Source: a phage. From it: a stretch of 64,000 nt of DNA. Each line of letters begins with the position of its first letter. The first letter of the stretch is position 1. The position numbers and the translations under genes were made by a program. Shown in pieces: positions 3,467 through 64,000 of the stretch. The stretch lies in sequence record PZ172995.1. The stretch is one strand, 5' to 3'. The notes under the pieces were generated by a model. It was not told where the DNA came from and ran no database searches. It worked only from the letters and a program-made list of their open reading frames with translations.

Positions 3467-8853
<5,387 letters not shown>

Positions 8854-19311: not shown

Positions 19312-19417
19312 CAGATTTTATAGCTTATTTGGCAGATTTTTTATAAGGCTACTGCCATCCTTCCATACATTACCTAACCAAGCCGAACATCACACAACCA
19401 GACCGAGCCGCACCCCG

Positions 19418-19501
19418 CCTTATTAAAAGACCCTGTTTAAAGACCTTTTAAAAAGGTAAGTCTCATTTTAATGTAGCTGAGACTAACTACCCATACCTCA
19501 C
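19418..19501. repeat. conserved intergenic element, copy A (~85 nt)
   Basis: CCTTATTAAAAGACCCTGTTTAAAGACCTTTTAAAAAGG followed by a ~52-nt core (GTAAGTCTCATTTTAATGTAGCTGAGACTAACTACCCATACCTCAC) identical to 20842-20893; core carries inverted repeat AGTCTCA/TGAGACT; partial third copy at ~19557-19595. Confidence 0.7.
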
Positions 19502-19585
19502 CTTACCACGCCGAACAGTACCGGACTATACCAGACCATGCCGAACATTGCCGAGCCTTATTAAAAGACCCTCTTAAAGACCTTT

Positions 19586-19610
19586 TAAAAAGGAGCCTCC
19601 GAAGAGGCTA
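19586..19610 (-). terminator. rho-independent terminator on minus strand (UUCG loop)
   Basis: Minus-strand read: GTAGCCTC-TTCG-GAGGCTCC then TTTTT; directly downstream of stop of 19621..20061. Confidence 0.65.
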
Positions 19611-20669: not shown

Positions 20670-20808
20670 TTAGTTGATTGTTAAGTTGTTTGTAAAGAAC
20701 CCTCAACAGAAGACTCTTTAGAAACTTGGTAGATTTTTAACGTGGCTACTACCATCCACCCTTACCGCGACACACCGAACCAGACCTTACACCACCTTAC
20801 ACCACCCC

Positions 20809-20893
20809 ACCTCATTAAAAGACCCTCTTAAAAGGCCTTTTAAAAAGGTAAGTCTCATTTTAATGTAGCTGAGACTAACTACCCATACCTCAC
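20809..20893. repeat. conserved intergenic element, copy B (~85 nt)
   Basis: CCTCATTAAAAGACCCTCTTAAAAGGCCTTTTAAAAAGG plus core identical to copy A; flanked by A/C-rich (minus strand G/T-rich) CACC/CCGAAC-repeat sequence as in copy A. Confidence 0.7.
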
Positions 20894-21061
20894 ATCACCG
20901 CACCATACTACACCTGACACCACCTTACACCACCGCACCATACCTGACCGAGCTACACATCACTTAAAAACCCTCTTAGAAAGACTCTTAAGTGATGCTG
21001 GTGAGTACCTGTTGGTTTATGCTGCTCAGTATACTCACCAAATTTTCTATGTCAACAACTT

Positions 21062-50348: not shown

Positions 50349-50378
50349 TTGACAAGGGGCTTCAAAGCCCCTTAGAAT
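50349..50378 (+). promoter_or_regulatory. sigma70-like promoter candidate (TTGACA-N18-TAGAAT) with hairpin in spacer
   Basis: Hexamers at 50349-50354 and 50373-50378; spacer is AGGGGCTTCAAAGCCCC stem-loop; 45 nt upstream of 50423. Confidence 0.45.
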
Positions 50379-55179: not shown

Positions 55180-55965
55180 ATGGGTATTGTAAAAATCATC
55201 AATGGGGATATCTTCTCCGCATTTGATAAAGGTAAGTTTGATATTATTGGTCACGGTTGCAACTGTATGAATTTAATGGGCGCAGGTATCGCTGACAAGA
55301 TTTCTAAACTTTACCCAAAAGCATATGAGACTGATACAGAAGTCTATCTGTATGCAGGTGGTATAGGTCACAAACCATGTGAAAATTTACTAGGCAATTT
55401 CTCTGTAGCACGTTTAGAACAAGGCCGTATAGCTAACCTTTACACTCAGCTTAAGACTGGTAAAGATGCCCGATACAGTGCTTTAGAGTCATCTTTGAAA
55501 CAACTTAACAGATACTGTGAAGTCAATCAGTTGAAGAAAGTTGGGTTACCTATGATTGGTGCAGGTATCGGTGGACTAGACTCTCAAGCCGTCACAGTCA
55601 TCATTAATCAGGTGATGAAGAGTGTAGATGTGTATCTGTATGTCTATGAAGGAGAGATGTACCACAAGTTACGCTCAGGTTGGAAGAACTACTGTGAACC
55701 AGAATACTTTGCTGGTGTAGTAGTGTTCACTAATGATGTAGTTACCCTCTTCAGACGAAGAAAAGGCAAGATACATCAAAGTAACCCTCCGGTTGAAAAG
55801 ATGTCTCTAAGTAACGCTCTAGTTACCCACCTGTCGAAGAGCAATCACAGAATTGCAGTAACATTTGGCAGTGATGCAGATACATATATCTATGCAAGAA
55901 CTGATGAGGATGTTGAGGAAATTTTCTCTTCACCGGAAGTAACCTTCTTAGACGCAAAGAACTAA
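55180..55965 (+). CDS. macrodomain protein (TARG1/DarG-like ADP-ribose binding/hydrolase fold)
   Basis: 261 aa; N-terminal IINGDIF...DIIGHGCNCMNLMGAGIA and later GLPMIGAGIGGLD match TARG1-type macrodomain motifs. Confidence 0.6.
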   Translation: MGIVKIINGDIFSAFDKGKFDIIGHGCNCMNLMGAGIADKISKLYPKAYETDTEVYLYAGGIGHKPCENLLGNFSVARLEQGRIANLYTQLKTGKDARYSALESSLKQLNRYCEVNQLKKVGLPMIGAGIGGLDSQAVTVIINQVMKSVDVYLYVYEGEMYHKLRSGWKNYCEPEYFAGVVVFTNDVVTLFRRRKGKIHQSNPPVEKMSLSNALVTHLSKSNHRIAVTFGSDADTYIYARTDEDVEEIFSSPEVTFLDAKN

Positions 55966-56034
55966 GAAACTCTGTAGAATATTCACAATAGGTTAAGCCT
56001 TTCTTATCTGGTAAATTTTTCAGGTAAGGAGGGC

Positions 56035-56234
56035 TTTTTCATTTCAGGATTGTGCAGGTAGAGTTCTGGACAGAAATCTGTAGAGAAAATTTTGAACTCC
56101 AAAGAGAAAATTCATTTTCAAACTGTGCAGGTAATCTCCAAAGAGCTTTTTCATTTTCAAAACGTGCAGACCCCGCTCAGGTCGGGCAAGAAAAATCATT
56201 TTAGAATTGTGCAGGTAGGTGGGTGCAGGTGGGG
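56035..56234. repeat. cluster of four to five direct repeats (~25-bp unit TTTTCATTTTCAAA-yTGTGCAGGTA)
   Basis: Copies at ~56035-56060, 56111-56133, 56146-56170, 56193-56217, partial 56218-56234, in a 500-bp gene-free gap. Confidence 0.65.
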
Positions 56235-56471
56235 ATGTCGCCATTTCTCACAAGGCTACCACATCTGAAAAGAAAAGTCAACAGAAAAATTTGTAGCGGA
56301 TTGAAAAATAATTCTTGATTGTAGTTCTGTTTTGTGGTAGTCGCGTGCACCCGTTTCATTACAATTTTTGCAAAAAATATTTTTAAAATTCCTATTGACT
56401 CTTTGAGTATGGTTATCTAATATTTGCATCAGACGGGCAATCAAGCCCACTTCCTAAACTGGAGAATCAAA

Positions 56472-56678
56472 ATGCTTTACAGTCGTGAATTGATGGTTAC
56501 AACTAACGTTAACACAAAGGTAAAACGTTTTTATATGCAAGTGTGCGGCGCATGGCGTAGAATATCAGAAGCTGACTATTGCAACTATGTAGAGACGGCT
56601 ATTAATTCTAATTGCTACCTTACAATAAACACTAAGAAGTTTACAAGACAGACAGCAATTTACTACTACGATAAATAA
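56472..56678 (+). CDS. small early protein
   Basis: Start set at MLYSRE... after RBS CTGGAGAATCAAAATG (ORF-track frame 56424..56678). Confidence 0.45.
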   Translation: MLYSRELMVTTNVNTKVKRFYMQVCGAWRRISEADYCNYVETAINSNCYLTINTKKFTRQTAIYYYDK

Positions 56679-56679
56679 A

Positions 56680-56769
56680 AAAGTACTTTACAAGGGGCTT
56701 AAAAGCTGATATCTTAAGCCCCAGATAAAGAGCTTTACTAAATTAACCCTTAAACTAGGAGATTCAAAA
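56680..56769 (+). promoter_or_regulatory. early intergenic cassette type 1 (stem-loop + AGATAAAGAGCTTTAC + SD)
   Basis: AGTACTTTACA, hairpin GGGGCTTAAAAGCTGATATCTTAAGCCCC (56694-56722), AGATAAAGAGCTTTAC, CCTTAAACTAGGAGATTCAAAAATG. Confidence 0.6.
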
Positions 56770-57150
56770 ATGGCTTATCGTGCACCGAAATTCATCAACA
56801 AAGACAACTTCCGCAACGCACTGGAGAAGTCACTTGGTGAAAATTTTAAAGGTAACATTATCGTTGTTCACGTATTCAATTTTAAGTATGATGTAAACGG
56901 GAATAGAATCAACCATTACACAGCAACCATGTTAGATGGTACGCTATCAAGTGAAAAAGCTGTACTGAATGCACTTGCAGGACGTGGTAAAAACCTGATA
57001 AGATGCGATAAGAGACGTTATCAGGGTGGCGCATATGGTTATGATGATGCTGTTTATCATCTTGAAAATATGGGCTATTCAGTGGAAAAAGCTGGAGTGT
57101 CTCAAATAATCGGCAGTGACGGCTATGTGACAATTTTCAAAATTAACTAA
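56770..57150 (+). CDS. small early protein
   Basis: 126 aa, preceded by conserved AGGAGATTCAAAAATG. Confidence 0.5.
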   Translation: MAYRAPKFINKDNFRNALEKSLGENFKGNIIVVHVFNFKYDVNGNRINHYTATMLDGTLSSEKAVLNALAGRGKNLIRCDKRRYQGGAYGYDDAVYHLENMGYSVEKAGVSQIIGSDGYVTIFKIN

Positions 57151-57151
57151 T

Positions 57152-57238
57152 AAAGTACTTTACAGGGGGCTTATAGTTCGATAAAGTAAGCCCCAGATAA
57201 AGAGCTTTACCACTAAATCCTAAATTGGAGATTCAAAA
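57152..57238 (+). promoter_or_regulatory. early intergenic cassette type 1
   Basis: Hairpin GGGGGCTTAT...GTAAGCCCC (~57166-57194) + AGATAAAGAGCTTTACCACTAAATCCTAAATTGGAGATTCAAAAATG. Confidence 0.6.
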
Positions 57239-57529
57239 ATGGCTATTATTAAAAACGTTGTAATTCCTGCAAAAACTCGTGATGACGCTCGCATCATGGC
57301 GAAAAAGTTAGGCGGGAAAGTGGTTGACAACGGAAAACAAACTGCTGTAAGGTGGAACGTGAAGGCGGATAAACAAATGAATTTAAAAAATTCACCAATA
57401 AACCTTTTTACATGTGTAAACACTATCGGGAAAACGAATGTATACACTAAAAAGGCATATATCAGACGCATCGCCATGACGTCACCTATTCGGACAATGA
57501 GAAGTCATGCAAAGCTGAAAATTAAGTAA
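57239..57529 (+). CDS. small early protein
   Basis: 96 aa after conserved SD context. Confidence 0.5.
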   Translation: MAIIKNVVIPAKTRDDARIMAKKLGGKVVDNGKQTAVRWNVKADKQMNLKNSPINLFTCVNTIGKTNVYTKKAYIRRIAMTSPIRTMRSHAKLKIK

Positions 57530-57530
57530 T

Positions 57531-57619
57531 AGAGTACTTTACAGGGGGCTTAAAAGCTGATATCTTAAGCCCCAGATAAAGAGCTTTACCACTCAATCCT
57601 TAAACTAGGAGATTCAAAA
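57531..57619 (+). promoter_or_regulatory. early intergenic cassette type 1
   Basis: Hairpin GGGGGCTTAAAAGCTGATATCTTAAGCCCC (57545-57573), near-identical to copy at 56694. Confidence 0.6.
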
Positions 57620-58132
57620 ATGAAAACTGTAGACGCTACCTTTGAAGTTGTAAAAGAAAAATTTTCCATCATTTACGAAGCTGTCAATTGCTACGAAGCA
57701 AGCCATAATCTTGATAATTGGAAGTTTACAGATGACCATCAAGGCGGTGTGACTATTAAAAACCCCAACTGTCAGCGTAATGGATTTAAATATGCAATTC
57801 CTTTACATTACAGCCTTAAACAGCTTTCAATTGACTATGCAAAACAAGGCCGGGAAAATCCATCGAAAGAGGCTTACATCAGCTTACAGAAAGAACTAGA
57901 AAGAGATTTAGAGGCTTCAGAATATAACATCGCCGCGAAAGTTGTAGATGCAAACGGTAGCACGGTTTTAGAGAGTTTTTATATTGGTTATGCTTTCGAT
58001 TGGTGCTACAGTGACGGCGATGATTTAGATGACAGACTAAAAGAGGAAGTGAACAACGCAGACGCAGAATCTGAAGTATTAGAACGCTTGGAAGCATTAA
58101 AAGATTCAGTGATGAATATCTTTAAGAACTAA
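57620..58132 (+). CDS. small early acidic protein
   Basis: 170 aa, D/E-rich C-terminal half. Confidence 0.5.
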   Translation: MKTVDATFEVVKEKFSIIYEAVNCYEASHNLDNWKFTDDHQGGVTIKNPNCQRNGFKYAIPLHYSLKQLSIDYAKQGRENPSKEAYISLQKELERDLEASEYNIAAKVVDANGSTVLESFYIGYAFDWCYSDGDDLDDRLKEEVNNADAESEVLERLEALKDSVMNIFKN

Positions 58133-58133
58133 A

Positions 58134-58223
58134 TAGACCTCTTTACACGGGGCTAACAAGCGGATATGATAGCCCCAGATAAAGAGATTTATCAAATTAA
58201 CCCTTAAACTAGGAGATTCAAAA
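58134..58223 (+). promoter_or_regulatory. early intergenic cassette type 1 (variant)
   Basis: Hairpin GGGGCTAACAAGCGGATATGATAGCCCC (~58149-58176) + AGATAAAGAGATTTATC + CCTTAAACTAGGAGATTCAAAAATG. Confidence 0.55.
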
Positions 58224-58520
58224 ATGAAATTATCAAATAAAGTTAGGGAAAACCTTAGCAAATTACTCAACAAAATTGATTTTATAGAGACATCAAGGAA
58301 TAGTCATGATGTTATGGAATGGTTACACGGCAAAATAAAAGGCCGTCGTGTAGTGATTTGCTTATGGAATAGTTGCAGGGAGTATAAAAAGCCTGTATTG
58401 CAAATTAATGTTTATGATGATACTTTTAAAAGTCCTGTAAAGTCTAAAAGCGATTTATTAGAATCCTATGAGATAACTGTAAATGGCAAAGTATCACGTA
58501 AAGAGGAAACACCATGTTAA
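58224..58520 (+). CDS. small early protein
   Basis: 98 aa after conserved SD context. Confidence 0.5.
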   Translation: MKLSNKVRENLSKLLNKIDFIETSRNSHDVMEWLHGKIKGRRVVICLWNSCREYKKPVLQINVYDDTFKSPVKSKSDLLESYEITVNGKVSRKEETPC

Positions 58521-58846
58521 TGACTGGTATCACTGCAATCATTGCCATTTTCGCGCTATATAAGGCATATAAAGCCTATAATCTAGCAAATAAGGCAATC
58601 ACACAGCAAGTTAGCAATAACCTTGTAGAGAGCTTTCTAGGGCGTTTAAGTGATGAGCAAATAAAGCGGCTAGAGATGAGCTTCAGATATAAAGCGAAAA
58701 CCTATCAGATAAGTGACATCTTCAAAGATGATTTCCAGTTAGTTGATGATTATAATTCTCTGATAAATGCTTTAAACATCAGTGACTTGAAAGACTATCA
58801 CGCTGTAATTGTTCAAGAATTGAGCAAACGAAAACAAAGTGTTTGA
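58514..58846 (+). CDS. small early membrane protein
   Basis: 110 aa; N-terminal hydrophobic segment (MLMTGITAIIAIFALY); stop overlaps TTGACA of next cassette. Confidence 0.45.
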   Translation: MLMTGITAIIAIFALYKAYKAYNLANKAITQQVSNNLVESFLGRLSDEQIKRLEMSFRYKAKTYQISDIFKDDFQLVDDYNSLINALNISDLKDYHAVIVQELSKRKQSV

Positions 58847-58937
58847 CACTGATTTTTAGATAGGTTAAATTACACATCAACGGGGAGGGAATGACCTTCC
58901 CCACTAAATAAAGTCCTTAAACTAGGAGATTCTAAAA
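58843..58937 (+). promoter_or_regulatory. early intergenic cassette type 2 (TTGACA-N17-TAAATT promoter + 5' stem-loop + SD)
   Basis: TTGACA 58843-58848, TAAATT 58866-58871, hairpin GGGGAGGGAATGACCTTCCCC (~58881-58902), SD AGGAGATTCTAAAAATG. Confidence 0.6.
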
Positions 58938-59096
58938 ATGTTTTGTGCAGGTGATAAAGTTGTCTGGAATGATATAGATGACGGTTTATGTACGAAAGTT
59001 GTTGTTATCTTAGAAATTGATTATATCACTGGTGTTGCAACTGTAGCAGATAATGATATAATCTTTGATGTCTTAATTAGTGAACTGTCAAAATAA
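58938..59096 (+). CDS. small early protein (52 aa), not in supplied ORF track
   Basis: ATG after conserved cassette SD; translation MFCAGDKVVWNDIDDGLCTK... Confidence 0.4.
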   Translation: MFCAGDKVVWNDIDDGLCTKVVVILEIDYITGVATVADNDIIFDVLISELSK

Positions 59097-59121
59097 AGTC
59101 CTTAAACTAGGAGATTCAAAA

Positions 59122-59394
59122 ATGTACACTACTAACAACGGTCGCACTTTAAATGTAACCCTACGCCACTATGTGAACGGTGTAATGCACTTCGAGGATT
59201 TACAAGCTGAACAACATATATTGGATTGGCAACTTGCAGGACTCCAAAAAACTGCTACCGGATACGGGAAAAAGATTCCAACTAGCTGGAAAGTATACTA
59301 CGAAGGCCGTTTGCGTAGAATTTATCAAGATGTATGCGGCAATAGCGCATCAAGTTACATCATAGTAAAAGGCAAAAAGCTGCATTTAGCATAA
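59122..59394 (+). CDS. small early protein
   Basis: Start set at MYTTNNGRT... after AGGAGATTCAAAAATG (ORF-track frame 59080..59394 begins upstream with GTG). Confidence 0.45.
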   Translation: MYTTNNGRTLNVTLRHYVNGVMHFEDLQAEQHILDWQLAGLQKTATGYGKKIPTSWKVYYEGRLRRIYQDVCGNSASSYIIVKGKKLHLA

Positions 59395-59395
59395 A

Positions 59396-59479
59396 GTACT
59401 TTACAAGGGGCTTATAAATCTGTACAGTAAGCCCCAGATAAAGAGCTTTACCACTAAATCCTAAATTGGAGATTCAAAA
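59396..59479 (+). promoter_or_regulatory. early intergenic cassette type 1
   Basis: Hairpin GGGGCTTATAAATCTGTACAGTAAGCCCC (59407-59435) + AGATAAAGAGCTTTACCACTAAATCCTAAATTGGAGATTCAAAAATG. Confidence 0.6.
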
Positions 59480-59884
59480 ATGGCTATTAATAATCGTGAG
59501 TTATCTATCTTAAAAGCACGTTTGACCGTTAACCGGATTAATGTTATCACATCAGCAGCACCGGATGAAACACTGCAAAACATTATTGGGAAGATTCAAA
59601 GTGTTATCTTAGACGTTGAAAGCGTAAAAAACTCATTGGCTGACGTTGCAGCCGGTATCACGCTAGACGGTGCACAACATGAGATGGCTGACATGTTAGG
59701 CAAATCAAAGGTAATGAATAAAGAATTAGACTTGAAAATGTTTCGATTTGCTGTTAAAGTGTGGCTATCCGTCGAGTATGACGCTAATTTTGCAATCGCT
59801 GATTTCTTTGCCACTTGGTTACAACGTAACTTAACAAATCATGATTTCCGTGATGTCTGTGATGCAATCTACGCAGAACTTTAA
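59480..59884 (+). CDS. small early protein
   Basis: 134 aa after conserved SD context. Confidence 0.5.
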   Translation: MAINNRELSILKARLTVNRINVITSAAPDETLQNIIGKIQSVILDVESVKNSLADVAAGITLDGAQHEMADMLGKSKVMNKELDLKMFRFAVKVWLSVEYDANFAIADFFATWLQRNLTNHDFRDVCDAIYAEL

Positions 59885-59891
59885 AAAGATG

Positions 59892-59984
59892 TTGACACTG
59901 ATTTTTAGATAGATTAAATTACTCATCAACGGGGAGGCAATAACCTCCCTACTAAATAAAGTCCTTAAACTAGGAGATTCTAAA
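59892..59984 (+). promoter_or_regulatory. early intergenic cassette type 2
   Basis: TTGACA 59892-59897, TAAATT 59915-59920, hairpin GGGGAGGCAATAACCTCCC (~59931-59949); near-identical to cassette at 58843. Confidence 0.6.
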
Positions 59985-60182
59985 ATGGCTATTATTAACG
60001 GCTTAACCATTGAAACAACACACATCAAAGATATCAAAGTTGGTGATGTAGTCCTTTCCCACGGCGTAGAAAAAACTGTCACTGCAAAGGATATCAAAGA
60101 GGATTCTTTCATGGGTAGAACTCTCTTCGGTGATTCTTATTGCTTAGGTTATCTTGCAGTTTTAAAAGTTGTCAAAAATTAA
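59985..60182 (+). CDS. small early protein
   Basis: 65 aa after conserved SD. Confidence 0.45.
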   Translation: MAIINGLTIETTHIKDIKVGDVVLSHGVEKTVTAKDIKEDSFMGRTLFGDSYCLGYLAVLKVVKN

Positions 60183-60183
60183 G

Positions 60184-60274
60184 TAATAAAGTACTTTACA
60201 AGGGGCTTAAAAAGTTGGTATCTTAAGCCCCAGATAAAGAGCTTTACACAGTCCTTAAACTAGGAGATTCAAAA
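60184..60274 (+). promoter_or_regulatory. early intergenic cassette type 1
   Basis: Hairpin GGGGCTTAAAAAGTTGGTATCTTAAGCCCC (60203-60231) + AGATAAAGAGCTTTACAC + CCTTAAACTAGGAGATTCAAAAATG. Confidence 0.6.
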
Positions 60275-60817
60275 ATGAAATGCTTTCACGGTACTACTCA
60301 AGAAAACTTCACCAACCTGATTAATAACGGTGATAAACCATCAGGCGCATGGAATTGTTCGGATATGGATGGCAATTTTTACGTTTATCCAGAAAATAAA
60401 ATCTATGGCGACGATGAGGAAGAAATAATCTCTGAAGGCATTCAACAAGCTTTAGGCAATGCCACTATAACGGCAGCTTTTCAGATGAAAACTCAAAACA
60501 TTGTTATCTTGGAACTTGATATTCCAGAGGATGAGTTGAATGATGATTATTCTTGTGATAATATGTCGAGCGTGGCAAGTTTTACAGAGTATTTCGATAT
60601 AAGCTGGATTAAAAAGGTTTACATCACTGAATTTAATGCTATGTTTTCGCCTTTTTGTCTCCCTTCACTGGATAACCCAAATTTAAACTATATTGACGAG
60701 TCTCTGGAACTTCTCGCTAAAAGTGTTCAACAATCAGACAGTATTCAGGTTTTTTGTGACATCATGGATACACTAACAGGAAACATCATAGAAAGTGATT
60801 TGAAGAGCTTTTTATAA
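60275..60817 (+). CDS. early protein
   Basis: 180 aa, acidic; no motif recognised. Confidence 0.5.
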   Translation: MKCFHGTTQENFTNLINNGDKPSGAWNCSDMDGNFYVYPENKIYGDDEEEIISEGIQQALGNATITAAFQMKTQNIVILELDIPEDELNDDYSCDNMSSVASFTEYFDISWIKKVYITEFNAMFSPFCLPSLDNPNLNYIDESLELLAKSVQQSDSIQVFCDIMDTLTGNIIESDLKSFL

Positions 60818-60883
60818 TAACCTATACAATCACCTTATAAATACTGATTAGCCCCTCACAGGGGCTTTTAGGAGGCCTAAATC

Positions 60884-61117
60884 ATGCTTACAACCATTTA
60901 TCTCATCCTTTCTATTTGTAATGGTCATTCATGCGATTTTAAAGGGCTTGAGGAGTTTACAGGGAGTAAAGAAAATGCCGTTCAAGTGTGCCAGATAGCA
61001 AGGCAAGACTATCCCGCCAGTGATGATATACAATGTTACTTTAAGACAGAAGATAATGACGGCGTTTATTTTGATAGCGTAGATGGTCAATATGAAATTA
61101 TCATTGAAAAAGACTAG
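60884..61117 (+). CDS. small early protein with N-terminal hydrophobic segment
   Basis: 77 aa; MLTTIYLILSICNGHSC... signal-like N-terminus. Confidence 0.4.
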   Translation: MLTTIYLILSICNGHSCDFKGLEEFTGSKENAVQVCQIARQDYPASDDIQCYFKTEDNDGVYFDSVDGQYEIIIEKD

Positions 61118-61129
61118 ACAAGCCTGATA

Positions 61130-61206
61130 AAAGTCTGTAAATTGTCAATCAACGGGAGGTAATAACCTCCCCACTAAGTAAAGTCCTTAAACTAGGAGAT
61201 TCAAAA
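61130..61206 (+). promoter_or_regulatory. early intergenic cassette type 2 (variant lacking clear TTGACA)
   Basis: GTCTGTAAATTGTCAATCAACGGGAGGTAATAACCTCCCCACTAAGTAAAGTCCTTAAACTAGGAGATTCAAAAATG; hairpin ~61154-61172. Confidence 0.55.
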
Positions 61207-61548
61207 ATGGCTTATGTAACCGTAATTACCGATAAAGATGGTTCATCTTGGTCAACTCAAGTAAGTGATAAGATGTCACCTATGCAGTGCCTAAAATACT
61301 TTGAGCAATGGAACAAAGGTGAAGAAACAAGCCCCTTCCAAGTGATGCAGATTATCCATACAGATAACGAAGGGAATAAAACTGTTTTGAATAGTGAGTA
61401 CTATGCAACCAGATTCGAAACGAGAAGTAAAGCAATGAAACTCTTACGTGAATCCGGTTACTCTCATATTGCCTCACTAATCTGGGATGACCTGCTAAAA
61501 AGTCAGCGTATCAGCTATGTAAAACCTGAAAAAACATTCATCAGTTAA
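61207..61548 (+). CDS. small early protein
   Basis: 113 aa after conserved SD. Confidence 0.5.
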   Translation: MAYVTVITDKDGSSWSTQVSDKMSPMQCLKYFEQWNKGEETSPFQVMQIIHTDNEGNKTVLNSEYYATRFETRSKAMKLLRESGYSHIASLIWDDLLKSQRISYVKPEKTFIS

Positions 61549-61699
61549 TCAATAACTTACAAAAAACTTTTAAAAAAGTGTTGACAATCCCTCTTGACAT
61601 TGGTAACTTTGTTCGAGGGGGTTTATCTAAAAGGGATTAACTTAAAAGATTCTTTATAGATAAACTTAAAAAATTGCTTGCAATCAGCTATCAAAACAA

Positions 61700-61769
61700 G
61701 TAAATTACTAATCAACGGGAGGTAATGACCTCCCCACTAAGTAAAGTCCTTAAACTAGGAGATTCAAAA
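61700..61769 (+). promoter_or_regulatory. early intergenic cassette type 2
   Basis: TAAATTACTAATCAACGGGAGGTAATGACCTCCCC (hairpin ~61717-61735) + ACTAAGTAAAGTCCTTAAACTAGGAGATTCAAAAATG; TTGACA boxes at ~61572-61600 upstream. Confidence 0.55.
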
Positions 61770-62300
61770 ATGAACAAGTTCAAAGCTATCAATTACATTC
61801 GTTCGAGTAGCATCATGTCAAAACCTGTTAAAGATACCTATGAATTTCGTTGCAATGGGGTGCATTTTGCAACCATCACCAAATCAGAAAACGGAGCTTA
61901 TTACATCCATCGCCGTAATGTTGCAACCGTTGTTGTCTCTCATTTTATGCAAGCTGTCGCGGAACTTCTCCCGATGTTTTTAGGGCTTTACTTGGATGAG
62001 TGTAAAAACGTTCACAATCACGTTAAAAACCTTTTAAACAGCTATAAAATGGCTTATGAACGTTCTATCAAGTCATTGAACAAGTTTTACAACGCACCTG
62101 AAAATACTGTGTCAATAGCCTATGGTGTAAGCGGTGAAATGGTAAACTTATCCAATGTGGAAGAAATCAAGCTGCATGATTTACGCCCTAACGGTTACGC
62201 TAAAACCATCGGTGAAGGTTTAACTTTCAATATCAAGAACTTAGAAAAAACTTTAAAAGATATTGAAAAAGATATTGACGAGACAATCAAAAGTCTGTAA
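61770..62300 (+). CDS. early protein
   Basis: Start set at MNKFKAIN... after cassette SD (ORF-track frame 61725..62300). Confidence 0.5.
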   Translation: MNKFKAINYIRSSSIMSKPVKDTYEFRCNGVHFATITKSENGAYYIHRRNVATVVVSHFMQAVAELLPMFLGLYLDECKNVHNHVKNLLNSYKMAYERSIKSLNKFYNAPENTVSIAYGVSGEMVNLSNVEEIKLHDLRPNGYAKTIGEGLTFNIKNLEKTLKDIEKDIDETIKSL

Positions 62301-62366
62301 ATTGTCAATCAACGGGGAGGGAATGACCTTCCCCACTAAACAAAGTCCTAAACTGGAGTTATCAAG
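62301..62366 (+). promoter_or_regulatory. early intergenic cassette type 2
   Basis: GTCTGTAAATTGTCAATCAACGGGGAGGGAATGACCTTCCCC (hairpin ~62314-62334) + ACTAAACAAAGTCCTAAACTGGAGTTATCAAGATG. Confidence 0.55.
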
Positions 62367-62630
62367 ATGGAAAACGTCGAACTGACCACACTTTTACAAA
62401 TTGCAACCGACAAAGAGGATGTAGCATTATTCCACCGTATCGAAAGTGATTTGTTCAATGGTGAAATCATTAAAGAATCTTACGAAGTGGTCGGATTCAA
62501 AGATGGTAAATCATTTGGATTCTTTGACCTCGACAAAGGCAACGCTATTACAAAGTATGATGTTTTATCTTGTGAGATTCTGACAAAATACAACGAAAAA
62601 AGACTTGCAACATACGCCAACATGCAGTAA
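62367..62630 (+). CDS. small early protein
   Basis: 87 aa after cassette. Confidence 0.5.
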   Translation: MENVELTTLLQIATDKEDVALFHRIESDLFNGEIIKESYEVVGFKDGKSFGFFDLDKGNAITKYDVLSCEILTKYNEKRLATYANMQ

Positions 62631-62695
62631 ATTACTAATCAACGGGAGGGATAACCTCCCTACTAAGTAAAGTCCTTAAACTAGGAGATTCTAAA
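62631..62695 (+). promoter_or_regulatory. early intergenic cassette type 2
   Basis: TAAATTACTAATCAACGGGAGGGATAACCTCCC (hairpin ~62644-62660) + TACTAAGTAAAGTCCTTAAACTAGGAGATTCTAAAATG. Confidence 0.55.
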
Positions 62696-62944
62696 ATGGC
62701 AACTATCCGCGCAATTGTAAATTCTTATGGCTGCTACACTCTGGACGTTAAATTTGATATAGGTGGGACCGATGAGTGTTTCGAACTGGTGAAAACAGTC
62801 ATTAAACAAGTTATCCCAGACTATAACCCTACTGATGACTTCTGGAAAGATGCAGTAAAAGAGGCGTTGAACGATGAATATCATTACCATTATTGGGGTG
62901 ATTTGATTGTCTCCCTGTACTACAATAAACAAGGTTGCAACTAA
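62696..62944 (+). CDS. small early protein
   Basis: 82 aa; last ORF before ~1 kb non-coding repeat region. Confidence 0.5.
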   Translation: MATIRAIVNSYGCYTLDVKFDIGGTDECFELVKTVIKQVIPDYNPTDDFWKDAVKEALNDEYHYHYWGDLIVSLYYNKQGCN

Positions 62945-62982
62945 TCGACGCAACGGGGCTAAATAGCCCCAGATACCTTTAT

Positions 62983-63006
62983 AGCCCCTTAAATGGGGCT
63001 TTTTTA
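62983..63006 (+). terminator. rho-independent terminator
   Basis: AGCCCC-TTAAAT-GGGGCT followed by TTTTTT; preceded by second hairpin GGGGCTAAATAGCCCC at ~62955-62970. Confidence 0.65.
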
Positions 63007-63049
63007 CGTCTTAACAAATCCCTATACAACCCTTTTCCTTTCCTTTCCA

Positions 63050-63700
63050 GAATCTATCCCATACCTTAAAAGCAATAACTCTATAGCTTACTCTATAGCC
63101 CCTTATCAAATCAACTTAAATATAAGCCCATAACCCGAAAGGGAAGGGCAACCATTTAAACGCTCTATAAAGCCCTATAACAGCCTTATCAACCTAACTT
63201 AAGGGATTGCATTACCTCACCCTTAAAAGCCCTTTATAAAGCTTCCCAGAGCCTTAAAAGAATCTTATAAGGGTGTAAGCTTTATTATCTCGTTAGCTAT
63301 CTTGTGAATGGTTAAACAACCCCTTGATAGTAACTGAAAAGTATGTTATAGGGGCTATAAAGTTACTTTGAAGTAGTTTAAAAGTTACTTAAAAGTTACG
63401 TAAATGCTAGCCCCCTTAACATTTTCTTAACAATTTCTTAACAATCCCTACATAGTTATGCTTTTAAGGTACTTGTTAGCAACTTGTTAGCCCCTTGTTA
63501 AATCTCTGTTAAAACCACGTAAAAGCCTTGTAAGAGCCTTTGACATAGCCTATAAAGCCTCTGTAAAGCCCTATAAATAGCTTTCTGTATAGTTGGGGTG
63601 TAATTACTAGGAAGAGACTAAAAAGAGCTTATAAGGAGCTATAAAGGGCTTTTAAGAGGGCTATTTAAAGGGTCACTAAGAGAGAAAGGGAACGATAAGA
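63050..63700. repeat. dispersed short direct repeats of CTATAAAG(C/G)C family in gene-free region
   Basis: About ten copies or variants (CTCTATAAAGCCCTATAA, CTTTATAAAGC, GGCTATAAAGTTAC, CCTATAAAGCCTCTGTAAAGCCCTATAAATAGC, GAGCTATAAAGGGC ...). Confidence 0.6.
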
Positions 63701-63995
63701 AAAGAGATAGTGACCATGTTAATAGCTTGTTAAAAAGATTAAACACTTGTTAGAAACTTGTTAATTATCTTAACAAAATAACTCTTTAAAATTAACTTGT
63801 TAGCTCTTGTTAGTCATCTGTTAAGACACTGTAAAGCCTATGTATCAACTGTTAAGAAACTGTTAAGTTCTTGTTAAAACTGTTAAGAATCTGTTAAGAC
63901 CTCTGAAGAGATGTTAAGAGGTTGTAAGAACTGTTAAGAGATTGTTAATGATATTTTAAAATTCTGCAAAGGGGATGTTACAGGGCTGTTAAGGG
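63420..63995. repeat. iteron-like array of CTTGTTA(A/G) / CTGTTAAG repeats, ~11-13 bp periodicity
   Basis: Two inverted copies (TTCTTAACAA x2, ~63428-63450), four copies ~63471-63510, and at least 15 copies from ~63725 to 63995 (e.g. CAACTGTTAAGAAACTGTTAAGTTCTTGTTAAAACTGTTAAGAATCTGTTAAGAC). Confidence 0.7.
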
Positions 63996-64000
63996 CTACC

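What the first reader, a model, noticed from the sequence alone, without database searches (positions are those of the whole stretch)
56680..60274. Early intergenic cassette type 1: conserved stem-loop + AGATAAAGAGCTTTAC + Shine-Dalgarno, six copies
Seen in sequence: six intergenic regions (ending at ATGs 56770, 57239, 57620, 58224, 59480, 60275) share about 85 nt: AGTACTTTACA, a GGGGCTTA...TAAGCCCC hairpin with variable loop, AGATAAAGAGCTTTAC, then CCTTAAACTAGGAGATTCAAAAATG. The hairpins lack a U-tract, so they are not classical terminators. Inference: processing sites, attenuators or promoter-associated elements that place many small early genes under a common regulatory and translational unit.
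Basis: seen in the sequence. Interest (0 to 1): 0.55.

Follow-up and report, generated by a model that had tools for sequence, protein, structure and literature searches.

The report
Promoter-in-hairpin gene cassettes, Felix O1-like phage
The six repeats are real, and each most likely holds a host-type promoter built into a conserved hairpin, followed by a standard leader and ribosome site; this design is already described in T4-like phages ("PeSL" cassettes) but not, as far as I could find, in the Felix O1 group.

Summary
The window is a Felix O1-like myophage (Felixounavirus). All six cassettes exist at the stated places, on the + strand, in front of six small genes of unknown function.

- **Promoter.** Each cassette carries a sigma-70-type promoter: -35 TTTACA, a 17/18-nt spacer, and -10 TAnnnT. 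The spacer and -10 lie inside the GGGGCTTA...TAAGCCCC hairpin.
- **The "separate" motif.** AGATAAAGAGCTT is the 3' arm of a longer interrupted hairpin. It pairs with AAGTACTTTA, which contains the -35.

Across about 150 copies from four Ounavirinae genera:
- The -35, the TA..T of the -10 and the 17-nt spacing are almost invariant, while the rest of the loop varies.
- The stem keeps pairing through compensatory changes (GGGG/CCCC to GGTG/CACC, TA to AT).
- G:T pairs far outnumber A:C mismatches, so pairing is selected on the sense strand.
- Gene-sized insertions and deletions between relatives begin and end at the cassettes.

This matches the promoter-early stem-loop (PeSL) cassettes of T4-like phages, read side by side in RB49. 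My verdict is a new member of a known kind. Promoter activity and the role of the hairpin in RNA are inferred, not shown.

The parts
56681..56772 (+). Type-1 cassette 1. The upstream stop codon TAA is at 56676-56678. Elements: -35 TTTACA 56687-56692; 17-nt spacer with TGn; -10 TATCTT 56710-56715; core hairpin 56694-56722; predicted start near A56723; 3' arm AGATAAAGAGCTTTAC 56723-56738; SD GGAG 56758-56761; ATG 56770.
   Evidence: (86.5 bits)
57153..57241 (+). Type-1 cassette 2. Elements: -35 57159-57164; 17-nt spacer; -10 TAAAGT 57182-57187; hairpin 57166-57194; 3' arm 57195-57210; SD 57227-57230; ATG 57239.
   Evidence: (83.6 bits)
57532..57622 (+). Type-1 cassette 3. Elements: -35 57538-57543; 17-nt spacer with TGn; -10 TATCTT 57561-57566; hairpin 57545-57573; 3' arm 57574-57589; SD 57608-57611; ATG 57620.
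   Evidence: (84.1 bits)
58136..58226 (+). Type-1 cassette 4, a diverged variant. Elements: -35 58142-58147; 17-nt spacer; -10 TATGAT 58165-58170; hairpin GGGGCTA..TAGCCCC 58149-58176; 3' arm AGATAAAGAGATTTAT 58177-58192, which pairs with CTCTTTA; SD 58212-58215; ATG 58224.
   Evidence: -20.9 kcal/mol, z -4.78; 67.2 bits
59394..59482 (+). Type-1 cassette 5. Elements: -35 59400-59405; 17-nt spacer; -10 TACAGT 59423-59428; hairpin 59407-59435; 3' arm 59436-59451; SD 59468-59471; ATG 59480.
   Evidence: (80.5 bits)
60189..60277 (+). Type-1 cassette 6. Elements: -35 60195-60200; 18-nt spacer with TGn; -10 TATCTT 60219-60224; hairpin 60202-60231; 3' arm 60232-60247; SD 60263-60266; ATG 60275.
   Evidence: (77.4 bits)
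50349..50378 (+). Related promoter-hairpin between rIIA and rIIB: TTGACA-A-GGGGCTT-CAA-AGCCCC-T-TAGAAT. The hairpin lies wholly inside the 18-nt spacer, the same layout as RB49 PeSLs.
   Evidence: (18.8 bits); annotated as a promoter in phage ASO1A
58843..58940 (+). Type-2 sibling cassette: TTGACA-17-TAAATT promoter, then the GGGGAGG..CCTTCCCC hairpin in the predicted 5' leader, then the same SD block.
   Evidence: promoter and 'terminator' annotated at the homologous place in ASO1A
59892..59987 (+). Type-2 sibling cassette (TTGACA-17-TAAATT, leader hairpin, SD, ATG 59985).
61115..61209 (+). Type-2 sibling cassette (TAGACA-17-TAAATT).
61677..61774 (+). Type-2 sibling cassette (TTGCAA-17-TAAATT).
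62276..62370 (+). Type-2 sibling cassette (TTGACG-17-TAAATT).
62606..62698 (+). Type-2 sibling cassette (TTGCAA-17-TAAATT).
59093..59124 (+). Minimal junction: stop codon plus the shared block AAAGTCCTTAAACTAGGAGATTCAAAAATG, with no promoter or hairpin. It is also an indel boundary.
   Evidence: (family D1)
55995..56046 (+). Canonical intrinsic terminator with a U-tract, bounding the cassette region upstream.
   Evidence: terminator t13 of Felix O1
62983..63006 (+). Canonical intrinsic terminator with a U-tract, ending the cassette region. It is preceded at 62947-62984 by a degenerate cassette remnant, GGGGCTAAATAGCCCCAGATA.
   Evidence: terminator t23 of Felix O1

Best explanation
Each repeat is a portable 'promoter plus stem-loop plus leader' cassette of about 90 bp, placed between the stop codon of one small early gene and the start of the next. 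I describe it in three parts and mark what is inferred.

**1. DNA level: promoter (inferred from sequence).** Host RNA polymerase with sigma-70 binds -35 TTTACA and a -10 TAnnnT hexamer 17-18 bp downstream; half the copies also have an extended TGn. Transcription should start at or next to the A of AGATAAAG. The transcript carries a standard 43-47-nt leader with a GGAG Shine-Dalgarno 8 nt before the ATG. Each gene of unknown function therefore has its own early promoter and the same translation signals.

**2. RNA level: hairpin (structure supported, role inferred).**
- The promoter's spacer, -10 and discriminator are written as a 9-bp G+C-rich hairpin.
- The flanks AAGUACUUUA and UAAAGAGCUU extend it to about 18 bp with internal loops.
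- The predicted start lies in the 3' arm, so only transcripts reading through from upstream contain the hairpin.
- In those transcripts it most likely marks a boundary, as an attenuator or insulator, a 3'-end stabiliser, or a processing site.
- This explains the invariance of AGATAAAG: it must stay complementary to the -35 region, which sigma-70 recognition itself holds fixed.

**3. Evolutionary level: recombination site (supported by comparison).** The near-identical cassettes give homology for recombination. Single genes are deleted, inserted or swapped precisely between cassettes without disturbing the expression of neighbours.
For: **Promoter**
- All six copies are picked up by the consensus scan as TTTACA-17/18-TATCTT, TAAAGT, TATGAT or TACAGT.
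- In 147 copies (55 distinct cores) from related contigs, TTTACA is present in 147/147. The spacer is 17 nt in 139 copies and 18 nt in 8. The -10 is TAnnnT in 146/147, with 12 different hexamers.
- The pattern xAxxxT occurs at only 14% of other offsets in the same cassettes.
- In the alignments, CTTTACA and the T, A and final T of the -10 are at least 97% conserved among otherwise variable loop columns.
- Variants that lost one base from each stem arm still keep the 17-nt spacing.
- Erwinia-phage variants change the -35 to TTGCAA, and the rIIA-rIIB copy has TTGACA. Both remain -35-like.
- All six type-2 siblings have a -35-like hexamer exactly 17 nt before TAAATT.
- Felix O1 encodes no RNA polymerase of its own, according to its genome paper.
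- In that paper's RT-PCR table, ORFs 16 and 20 peak at 5 min. These are the genes just downstream of the same 57-bp repeat.

**Hairpin**
- Predicted free energy is -18.3 to -20.9 kcal/mol, with z-scores of -2.6 to -4.8.
- 96.7% of cells pair, against at most 64% when partners are slid. Five pairs show changes on both sides. The covariation score is 0.151, against 0.073 in shuffles (0 of 500 reach it).
- Pair 3 is G-C in 59 distinct cores and T-A in 8, and is always paired. Pairs 7-9 switch between TA/AT and AT/CG/TA.
- G:T pairs number 125 and A:C mismatches 17, so pairing is maintained on the sense strand.

**Recombination**
- 38 of 44 ends of segments missing in relatives lie within 15 nt of a cassette, although cassettes plus 15 nt cover only 23% of the region.
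- Match end points fall at cassettes 1, 2, 3 and 6 and at the type-2 cassette at 59987.
- Individual relatives lack exactly the gene between two cassettes, and one contig has an empty tandem cassette.

**Precedent**
- PeSLs of phages RB49 and phi1 have the same layout. Their promoter and terminator activity was shown with lacZ fusions. I read the RB49 copies directly for comparison.
Against: - No transcript data exist for this phage group in the literature I could search. Promoter activity, the start site and any RNA role are untested.
- The -10 hexamers are weak, at 4-5 matches of 6, and only half the copies have the TGn extension.
- The hairpin has no U-tract, so it is not a classical terminator.
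- Support for the outer helix rests on one covarying pair, probably from one or two events. Its other pairs never vary, so they say nothing for or against it.
- The copies are related by descent and by recombination. Shuffle statistics therefore overstate independence.
- The alignment used was fitted to the model structure.
Confidence: 0.7

Rival explanations
1. A purely RNA element. The long interrupted hairpin is an endonuclease processing site (RNase III type, or RNase E acting on the adjacent AU-rich AGAUAAAG), or a U-tract-less attenuator inside one long early transcript. On this view the promoter-like hexamers are incidental.
For: - The extended hairpin has about 18 bp with 1x1 and 3x3 internal loops and is stable.
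- It shows compensatory changes and an excess of G:T pairs on the sense strand.
- It has no U-tract.
- From general knowledge: the RNase III sites between T7 early genes are interrupted hairpins of similar size.
Against: - An RNA loop gives no reason for the invariant T, A and final T at a fixed 17-nt distance from an invariant TTTACA while the neighbouring loop positions vary.
- The spacing is kept when the arm length changes.
- Variants replace TTTACA by TTGCAA or TTGACA, which breaks the outer helix but keeps a -35.
- Some Erwinia-phage copies lack the AGATAAAG arm altogether yet keep the -35, hairpin and -10.
Confidence: 0.12
2. A DNA operator. The two 12-bp boxes TAAAG-nn-CTTTA are binding sites for a phage early-shutoff repressor or other dimeric DNA-binding protein. 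The left box overlaps the -35; the right box lies at about +4 to +15.
For: - AGATAAAG is invariant in 151 of 151 copies found without constraining it.
- The left box TAAAGTACTTTA is a perfect palindrome in most Felixounavirus copies. In some Erwinia-phage copies the two boxes are a direct repeat, ATAAAGAGCTTTA.
- The positions are classical for repression.
Against: - The left half of the left box varies: TAAAG, AAAAG, TAAAT, ATAGA.
- The core stem changes sequence while keeping pairing, and tolerates G:T but not A:C. This points to single-strand pairing rather than duplex recognition.
- Some variants lack the right box.
- No candidate binding protein was identified. The neighbouring genes have no known domains.
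Confidence: 0.08
3. A selfish or neutral repeat: a small mobile palindromic element, or sequence homogenised by gene conversion, with no regulatory role.
For: - There are many copies per genome: 1396 places in 288 phage records.
- Cassettes sit at recombination breakpoints.
- One contig has an empty tandem cassette.
Against: - Copies always run in the same direction as the genes. They keep a fixed register between stop codon and start codon.
- Each cassette keeps its own loop sequence across genomes, so homogenisation is not frequent. Yet the promoter positions and AGATAAAG stay invariant from E. coli phages to Erwinia phages.
Confidence: 0.05

Closest known systems
PeSL (promoter-early stem-loop) cassettes of T4-like phages RB49/phi1, T4/PST and KVP40/nt-1 (Arbiol et al. 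2010, PMC2839356; Comeau et al. 2014, PMC4122927)
   Same: - They are intergenic, with the stop codon of the upstream gene in an A/T-rich stretch.
- They carry a sigma-70-like -35 and -10, 17 nt apart.
- A GGGG...CCCC stem-loop, often with G-T pairs, lies between the hexamers or overlaps the -10.
- A GGAG Shine-Dalgarno and ATG close the 3' end.
- Many copies cluster among small genes of unknown function.
- They sit at insertion, deletion and replacement boundaries between close relatives.
- The T4/PST consensus -35 is TTTACW, as here.
- RB49 copies read directly have the form TAAAAAGTTGTTGACAGGGGATCACCGATCCCCTATAAT...GGAGAATCAAAAATG.
   Different: - The phage lineage differs: Ounavirinae rather than Straboviridae. 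There is no sequence homology beyond the generic signals.
- The hairpin here is 29 nt with an 11-12-nt loop. It runs from +1 nt after the -35 through the -10 to the start site. In RB49 it is a 17-nt hairpin wholly inside the spacer. Only the rIIA-rIIB copy at 50349 looks like that.
- The -10 is weak (TAnnnT), against TATAAT in RB49.
- There is an extra invariant 3' arm, AGATAAAGAGCTT, that pairs with the -35 region.
- Promoter activity, terminator activity and mini-circle formation were shown for PeSLs. None has been shown here.
Repeats listed in the Felix O1 genome paper (Whichard et al. 2010, PMC3185647)
   Same: The paper lists the same sequence: a 57-bp direct repeat, CTTTACATGGGGCTTAAAAGTCTGTAAAGTAAGCCCCAGATAAAGAGCTTTACCACT, between genes 15/16 and 19/20. 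It also lists the 39-bp type-2 repeat.
   Different: The paper reports them only as direct repeats. It assigns no promoter, structure or role, and states that promoters for this region and the temporal control of transcription are unknown.
RNase III processing hairpins between the early genes of phage T7 (from general knowledge, not tested here)
   Same: They are interrupted hairpins of about two helical turns, with an internal loop, lying between early genes on a read-through transcript.
   Different: The T7 sites do not contain a promoter. Cleavage has not been shown here, and the helix here has only about 18 bp.
Rho-independent (intrinsic) terminators
   Same: A G+C-rich stem-loop lies directly after a stop codon.
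   Different: There is no U-tract. The stem is followed by AGAUAAAG in every copy. The true terminators of this genome do have U-tracts (55995, 62983).

Membership tests
PeSL cassettes (T4-like phages) | Intergenic position, with the stop codon of the upstream gene in an A/T-rich stretch just before the -35 | tested here: met
   The nearest stop codon ends 5-9 nt before TTTACA in all 147 copies parsed. In the window the stop-to-(-35) gap is 5-12 nt.
PeSL cassettes (T4-like phages) | Sigma-70-like -35 and -10 hexamers about 17 nt apart | tested here: met
   The window copies read TTTACA-17/18-TAnnnT. Across 147 copies the elements are essentially invariant. This tests sequence only, not activity.
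PeSL cassettes (T4-like phages) | A stable stem-loop, typically a G-run paired with a C-run, placed between -35 and -10 or overlapping the -10 | tested here: met
   The GGGGCTTAA/TTAAGCCCC stem starts 1 nt after the -35 and includes the last base or bases of the -10.
PeSL cassettes (T4-like phages) | Shine-Dalgarno and start codon of the downstream gene at the 3' end | tested here: met
   GGAG lies 8 nt before the ATG in all six copies.
PeSL cassettes (T4-like phages) | Many copies clustered in a variable region of small genes of unknown function | tested here: met
   Between 56.4 and 63.0 kb there are 6 type-1 and 6 type-2 cassettes. Ten neighbouring proteins match only PHROG families of unknown function and have no Pfam match above cut-off.
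PeSL cassettes (T4-like phages) | Located at insertion, deletion or replacement boundaries between close relatives | tested here: met
   38 of 44 gap ends lie within 15 nt of a cassette, against 23% expected.
PeSL cassettes (T4-like phages) | Demonstrated promoter activity, terminator activity and mini-circle formation | not testable with these tools
   This needs reporter fusions, transcript-end mapping and inverse PCR.
PeSL cassettes (T4-like phages) | Carried by a T4-like (Straboviridae) genome | tested here: not met
   The window is a Felixounavirus of the Ounavirinae. The resemblance is one of architecture, not of lineage or sequence.
Intrinsic terminator | A U-rich tract immediately 3' of the stem | tested here: not met
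   None of the six is in the terminator scan. The stem is followed by AGATAAAG in 151 of 151 copies.
RNase III processing site | About 20 bp or more of mostly continuous double-stranded RNA, cleaved by RNase III | tested here: inconclusive
   There are 18 predicted pairs, interrupted by 1x1 and 3x3 loops. Cleavage is not testable here.
Phage N4 early hairpin promoters (from general knowledge) | A 5-7-bp stem with a 3-nt loop, recognised by a virion RNA polymerase | tested here: not met
   The stem here has 9 bp and the loop 11-12 nt. Felix O1 is reported to encode no RNA polymerase.
T4 MotA-dependent middle promoters (from general knowledge) | A TGCTTtA box about 12 nt upstream of the -10, together with MotA and AsiA proteins | tested here: not met
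   Some relatives have GTGCTTTACA, but the box ends 19 nt before the -10. Felix O1 is reported to encode no proteins that modify host polymerase specificity.
Any Rfam RNA family | A match to a curated covariance model | tested here: not met
   There are no matches at E up to 1 in 55900-63100 on either strand.

The most novel reading that the evidence does not exclude
The roughly 18-bp interrupted hairpin that hides the -35 and the start site in read-through RNA could be a dedicated processing site, for RNase III or another endonuclease cutting in or near the AGA internal loop. Cleavage would then leave the upstream message ending in a protective hairpin. It would give the downstream message almost the same 5' end (AGAUAAAG...) as transcripts started at the embedded promoter. 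Every small early gene would then yield a uniform monocistronic mRNA, whichever promoter made it. The same cassettes might also act as exchange points for gene mini-circles across the whole Ounavirinae subfamily.
Probability: 0.2. Interest if true: 0.55.

Novelty: new member of a known kind. Interest (0 to 1): 0.35.

Why it matters
Felix O1-like phages are widely used for Salmonella typing, biocontrol and therapy. The founding genome paper nonetheless says that the promoters of this region and the temporal control of transcription are unknown. Reading the repeat as a promoter-in-hairpin cassette has three consequences.
- **Early promoters.** It supplies candidate early promoters for a block of genes of unknown function. 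The window has 13 in 6.6 kb: six type-1, six type-2 and one at 56395.
- **Mosaic genomes.** It explains why related genomes differ by whole genes that begin and end at the same short sequence.
- **A wider design.** It shows that the PeSL design is not confined to T4-like phages, which suggests convergent or shared logic for plugging accessory genes into lytic phage genomes.

In practice, the cassettes are natural insertion points for engineering these phages.

Tried and rejected
**Interpretations tested and rejected**
- **Second TTTAC as the -35 of another promoter.** I paired it with TAAACT or TAAATT next to the Shine-Dalgarno. The spacing is only 7-13 nt, and a start there would remove the Shine-Dalgarno (read).
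- **T4-type MotA box.** GTGCTTTACA occurs in relatives, but with the wrong distance to the -10.
- **N4-type hairpin promoter.** The stem and loop sizes are wrong, and the phage has no polymerase of its own.
- **Classical terminator.** There is no U-tract.
- **Known RNA family.** Rfam gives nothing.
- **Strand test by folding energy.** Comparing the two strands of the core hairpin was uninformative, at -12.06 against -11.94 kcal/mol. Counting G:T against A:C was informative.

**Technical problems**
- The plain MAFFT alignment puts short-arm variants out of register for pairs 7-9. I solved this with end-anchored counting and a model-based alignment.
- My first regex for the wider set shifted the register for copies with five G's, so the pair 5-8 numbers are noisy. 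Pair 3 and the shuffle results stand.

**Searches that found nothing**
- Literature searches for transcript maps of Felix O1-like phages found none.
- The phiEa21-4 genome paper is not held.
- The wV8 paper does not mention promoters or repeats.
- PHROG and Pfam scans of the ten neighbouring proteins gave no function.

Full report
**What the window is.** The region 56300-60900 matches 251 phage records at up to 99% identity. Nearly all are Felix O1-like myophages of Escherichia, Salmonella, Shigella and Citrobacter. In the annotated relative ASO1A, the homologous stretch follows rIIA and rIIB and consists of small hypothetical genes. The cassette region runs from about 56.4 to 63.0 kb on the + strand. 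It is bounded by two canonical U-tract terminators, at 55995 and 62983. These correspond to terminators t13 and t23 of Felix O1.

- AGATAAAGAGCTTTAC is exact in five copies and has two mismatches in the sixth. With up to 3 mismatches there are 8 matches, against 1.23 expected by chance.
- CTTTACAnGGGGCT is exact in all six.
- A covariance model built from relatives recovers exactly these six at 67-86 bits. Nothing else on the + strand scores above 19 bits.

**Anatomy: a promoter inside the hairpin.** The promoter scan lists every copy as TTTACA, then 17 nt (18 nt in copy 6), then TATCTT, TAAAGT, TATGAT or TACAGT. Three copies also have a TGn extension.
- The 17-nt spacer is the 5' arm plus most of the loop of the hairpin.
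- The -10 ends on the first base of the 3' arm.
- The usual start, 7-8 nt further on, falls on the last C of the stem or the A of AGATAAAG.
- A transcript started here therefore lacks the hairpin. It begins with the conserved leader, which runs 43-47 nt to the ATG, with GGAG 8 nt upstream of it.

**Anatomy: the hairpin is longer than described.** Folding the region as RNA gives one long interrupted hairpin: AAGU, a 1x1 loop, CUUUA, a 3x3 loop, a 9-bp G+C-rich stem, and an 11-12-nt loop. Predicted free energy is -18.3 to -20.9 kcal/mol, with z-scores of -2.6 to -4.8.

**Comparative evidence for the promoter.** An exact-word scan of viral contigs returned many Felix O1-like contigs. Parsing them gave 147 copies with 55 distinct cores.
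- TTTACA is present in all 147 copies.
- The spacer is 17 nt in 139 copies and 18 nt in 8.
- The -10 is TAnnnT in 146 copies, spread over 12 different hexamers.
- In the alignments, the T, A and final T of the -10 are the only loop positions conserved at 97% or more.
- The same xAxxxT pattern is found at only 14% of other offsets.
- Variants that lost one base from each arm lengthen the loop, so the 17-nt spacing is preserved.

**Wider distribution.** The cassette occurs at 1396 places in 288 phage records. These span Felixounavirus, Suspvirus, Mooglevirus and the Erwinia Kolesnikvirus group. In the Erwinia phages the stem is GGTG...CACC. Some copies use TTGCAA as the -35 and TGaGACTAT as the -10, and lack the AGATAAAG arm. 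Across all these variants the constant features are a -35-like hexamer, a hairpin and a -10-like hexamer at fixed spacing.

**Comparative evidence for the hairpin.** Counting pairs from both ends of the core stem in 55 distinct cores gave the following:
- nine paired positions;
- C-G or T-G at pair 5, about half each;
- switches between TA/AT and AT/CG/TA at pairs 7-9;
- no pairing beyond pair 9.

With the Erwinia copies added, pair 3 is G-C in 59 cores and T-A in 8, and is never unpaired. No shuffle out of 2000 reaches this.

On a model-based alignment of 93 copies (70 distinct):
- 96.7% of cells pair, against at most 64% with slid partners.
- Five pairs change on both sides.
- The covariation score is 0.151, against 0.073 in shuffles.
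- G:T pairs number 125 and A:C mismatches only 17, so pairing is maintained on the sense strand.

Two cautions apply. The outer helix has only one covarying pair (G-C 56, U-A 10), while its CUUUA/UAAAG part never varies and so says nothing either way. The copies are related to each other and the alignment was fitted to the model, so these numbers overstate independence.

**Recombination.** I compared the window's 56300-63000 stretch with every related locus of at least 6 kb. This gave 22 internal segments missing in a relative, representing 13 distinct gaps. Of their 44 ends, 38 lie within 15 nt of a type-1, type-2 or SD-only junction, although those junctions plus 15 nt cover only 23% of the stretch.
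- The match end points fall at cassettes 1, 2, 3 and 6 and at the type-2 cassette at 59987.
- ASO1A lacks exactly the gene at 56770-57150, and another contig lacks exactly 57620-58132.
- In another contig, a gene preceded here by a type-2 cassette has a type-1 cassette instead.
- One contig carries an empty cassette, in which an ATG is followed at once by the next CTTTACA.

**Context.**
- Six type-2 cassettes in the same block each have a -35-like hexamer exactly 17 nt before TAAATT. Each is followed by a hairpin in the predicted leader and the same Shine-Dalgarno block.
- The rIIA-rIIB spacer reads TTGACA-A-GGGGCTT-CAA-AGCCCC-T-TAGAAT, a hairpin wholly inside the spacer.
- The ten neighbouring proteins match only PHROG families of unknown function. 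None has a Pfam match above cut-off.
- Rfam has no match.
- The Felix O1 paper lists the 57-bp repeat without interpretation. It says the phage has no polymerase of its own and that promoters and timing are unknown. Its RT-PCR table shows ORFs 16 and 20, downstream of the repeats, peaking at 5 min.
- A Salmonella screen reported that raised RpoS activity makes cells resistant to FelixO1. That fits a dependence on sigma-70 holoenzyme but has other possible explanations.

**Comparison with what is known.** PeSLs of T4-like phages are defined as intergenic cassettes with these features:
- an upstream stop codon in an A/T-rich stretch;
- a sigma-70-like promoter;
- a GGGG...CCCC stem-loop, most often between -35 and -10 or overlapping the -10, with G-T pairs;
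- a Shine-Dalgarno and ATG at the 3' end;
- clustering in variable regions, at indel boundaries;
- promoter and terminator activity shown by lacZ fusions, and mini-circles shown by inverse PCR.

I read the RB49 copies directly. A typical one is TAAAAAGTTGTTGACAGGGGATCACCGATCCCCTATAAT...GGAGAATCAAAAATG. Six architectural features are met here. The three experimental ones cannot be tested, and the lineage differs.

The cassette differs from RB49 PeSLs in three ways:
- The hairpin is longer and runs through the -10 to the start site.
- The -10 is weaker.
- An invariant 3' arm pairs with the -35 region.

**Mechanism and rivals.**
- **Best reading (0.7).** A host-type early promoter is nested in a hairpin that acts only in read-through RNA. 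It is followed by a standard leader, and the whole unit serves as a recombination module.
- **RNA-only element (0.12).** This does not explain the promoter-specific invariants or the variants that keep a -35 while breaking the outer helix.
- **Operator model (0.08).** This explains the invariance of AGATAAAG. It fits poorly with the variable left half-site, the compensatory changes and the excess of G:T pairs.
- **Neutral or selfish repeat (0.05).** This fits poorly with the fixed register and orientation, and with conservation from E. coli phages to Erwinia phages.

**Novelty.** The repeat itself is in the literature, and the design is known from T4-like phages. I found no paper linking the two. 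The finding is therefore a new member of a known kind, of moderate interest. The open question is what the extended hairpin does in RNA.

Noticed in passing
window 56040-56240: There are four or five copies of a TCATTTTCAAAnnGTGCAGGT-like motif, about 40-45 nt apart. They lie in the roughly 400-nt non-coding stretch between terminator 55995-56046 and the first promoter of the cassette region, at 56395 (TTGACT-17-TAATAT). They could be binding sites for a regulator or an origin-like array.
   Followed up: no
window 63000-64000: More than 1 kb has no plausible ORF and is dense in short repeats (CTGTTAAGA, CTTGTTA, TATAAAGCC). It lies after the terminator that ends the early block. The homologous gap is also unannotated in phages ASO1A, Maleficent and SUSP2.
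   Followed up: no
window 19370-19600 and 20762-20990: A 157-nt repeat (78% identical) is built of 5-nt periodic nnACC units. It is followed by AAAGACCCT...AAAGACCTTTTAAAAAGG and flanks minus-strand genes.
   Followed up: no
window 58843-58940, 59892-59987, 61115-61209, 61677-61774, 62276-62370, 62606-62698: This is a second cassette type. A -35-like hexamer (TTGACA, TAGACA, TTGCAA or TTGACG) lies exactly 17 nt before TAAATT. A GGGGAGG..CCTCCCC hairpin follows in the predicted 5' leader, then the same SD block. Some database records annotate this hairpin as a terminator although it has no U-tract.
   Followed up: partly
window 50349-50378: The rIIA-rIIB spacer holds TTGACA-A-GGGGCTT-CAA-AGCCCC-T-TAGAAT. 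This is a near-consensus promoter with the hairpin wholly inside the 18-nt spacer, the layout seen in RB49 PeSLs.
   Followed up: partly
window 62947-62984: A degenerate remnant of a type-1 cassette (GGGGCTAAATAGCCCCAGATA, 10.5 bits with the model) lies directly in front of the true terminator at 62983.
   Followed up: no
window 56472-56485; locus L004 (IMG/VR UViG 2974556886), minus strand near 7391-7474: The first gene of the block starts ATGCTTTACAG, which is the cassette's 5' arm right after the ATG. L004 has an 'empty' cassette in which ...GGAGAATCTAAAATG is followed at once by CTTTACATGGGG.... Both look like footprints of recombination inside cassettes.
   Followed up: partly
window 61560-61700: An unusually long leader before gene 61772 carries tandem -35-like hexamers (GTGTTGACAATCCCTCTTGACATT). 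The region is conserved in Citrobacter phage Maleficent (L123 10968-11173).
   Followed up: no
loci L122, L124, L125 (Erwinia/Kolesnikvirus phages): A hybrid cassette has TTGCAA or TTTACA, then GGGGTTACGGTTATGAGACTATAACCCC, then GTCGAAAC in place of AGATAAAG. It shows that the 3' arm is dispensable in some lineages.
   Followed up: partly
whole window: No tRNA genes were found in the 64 kb, so the window excludes the tRNA cluster described for Felix O1.
   Followed up: yes
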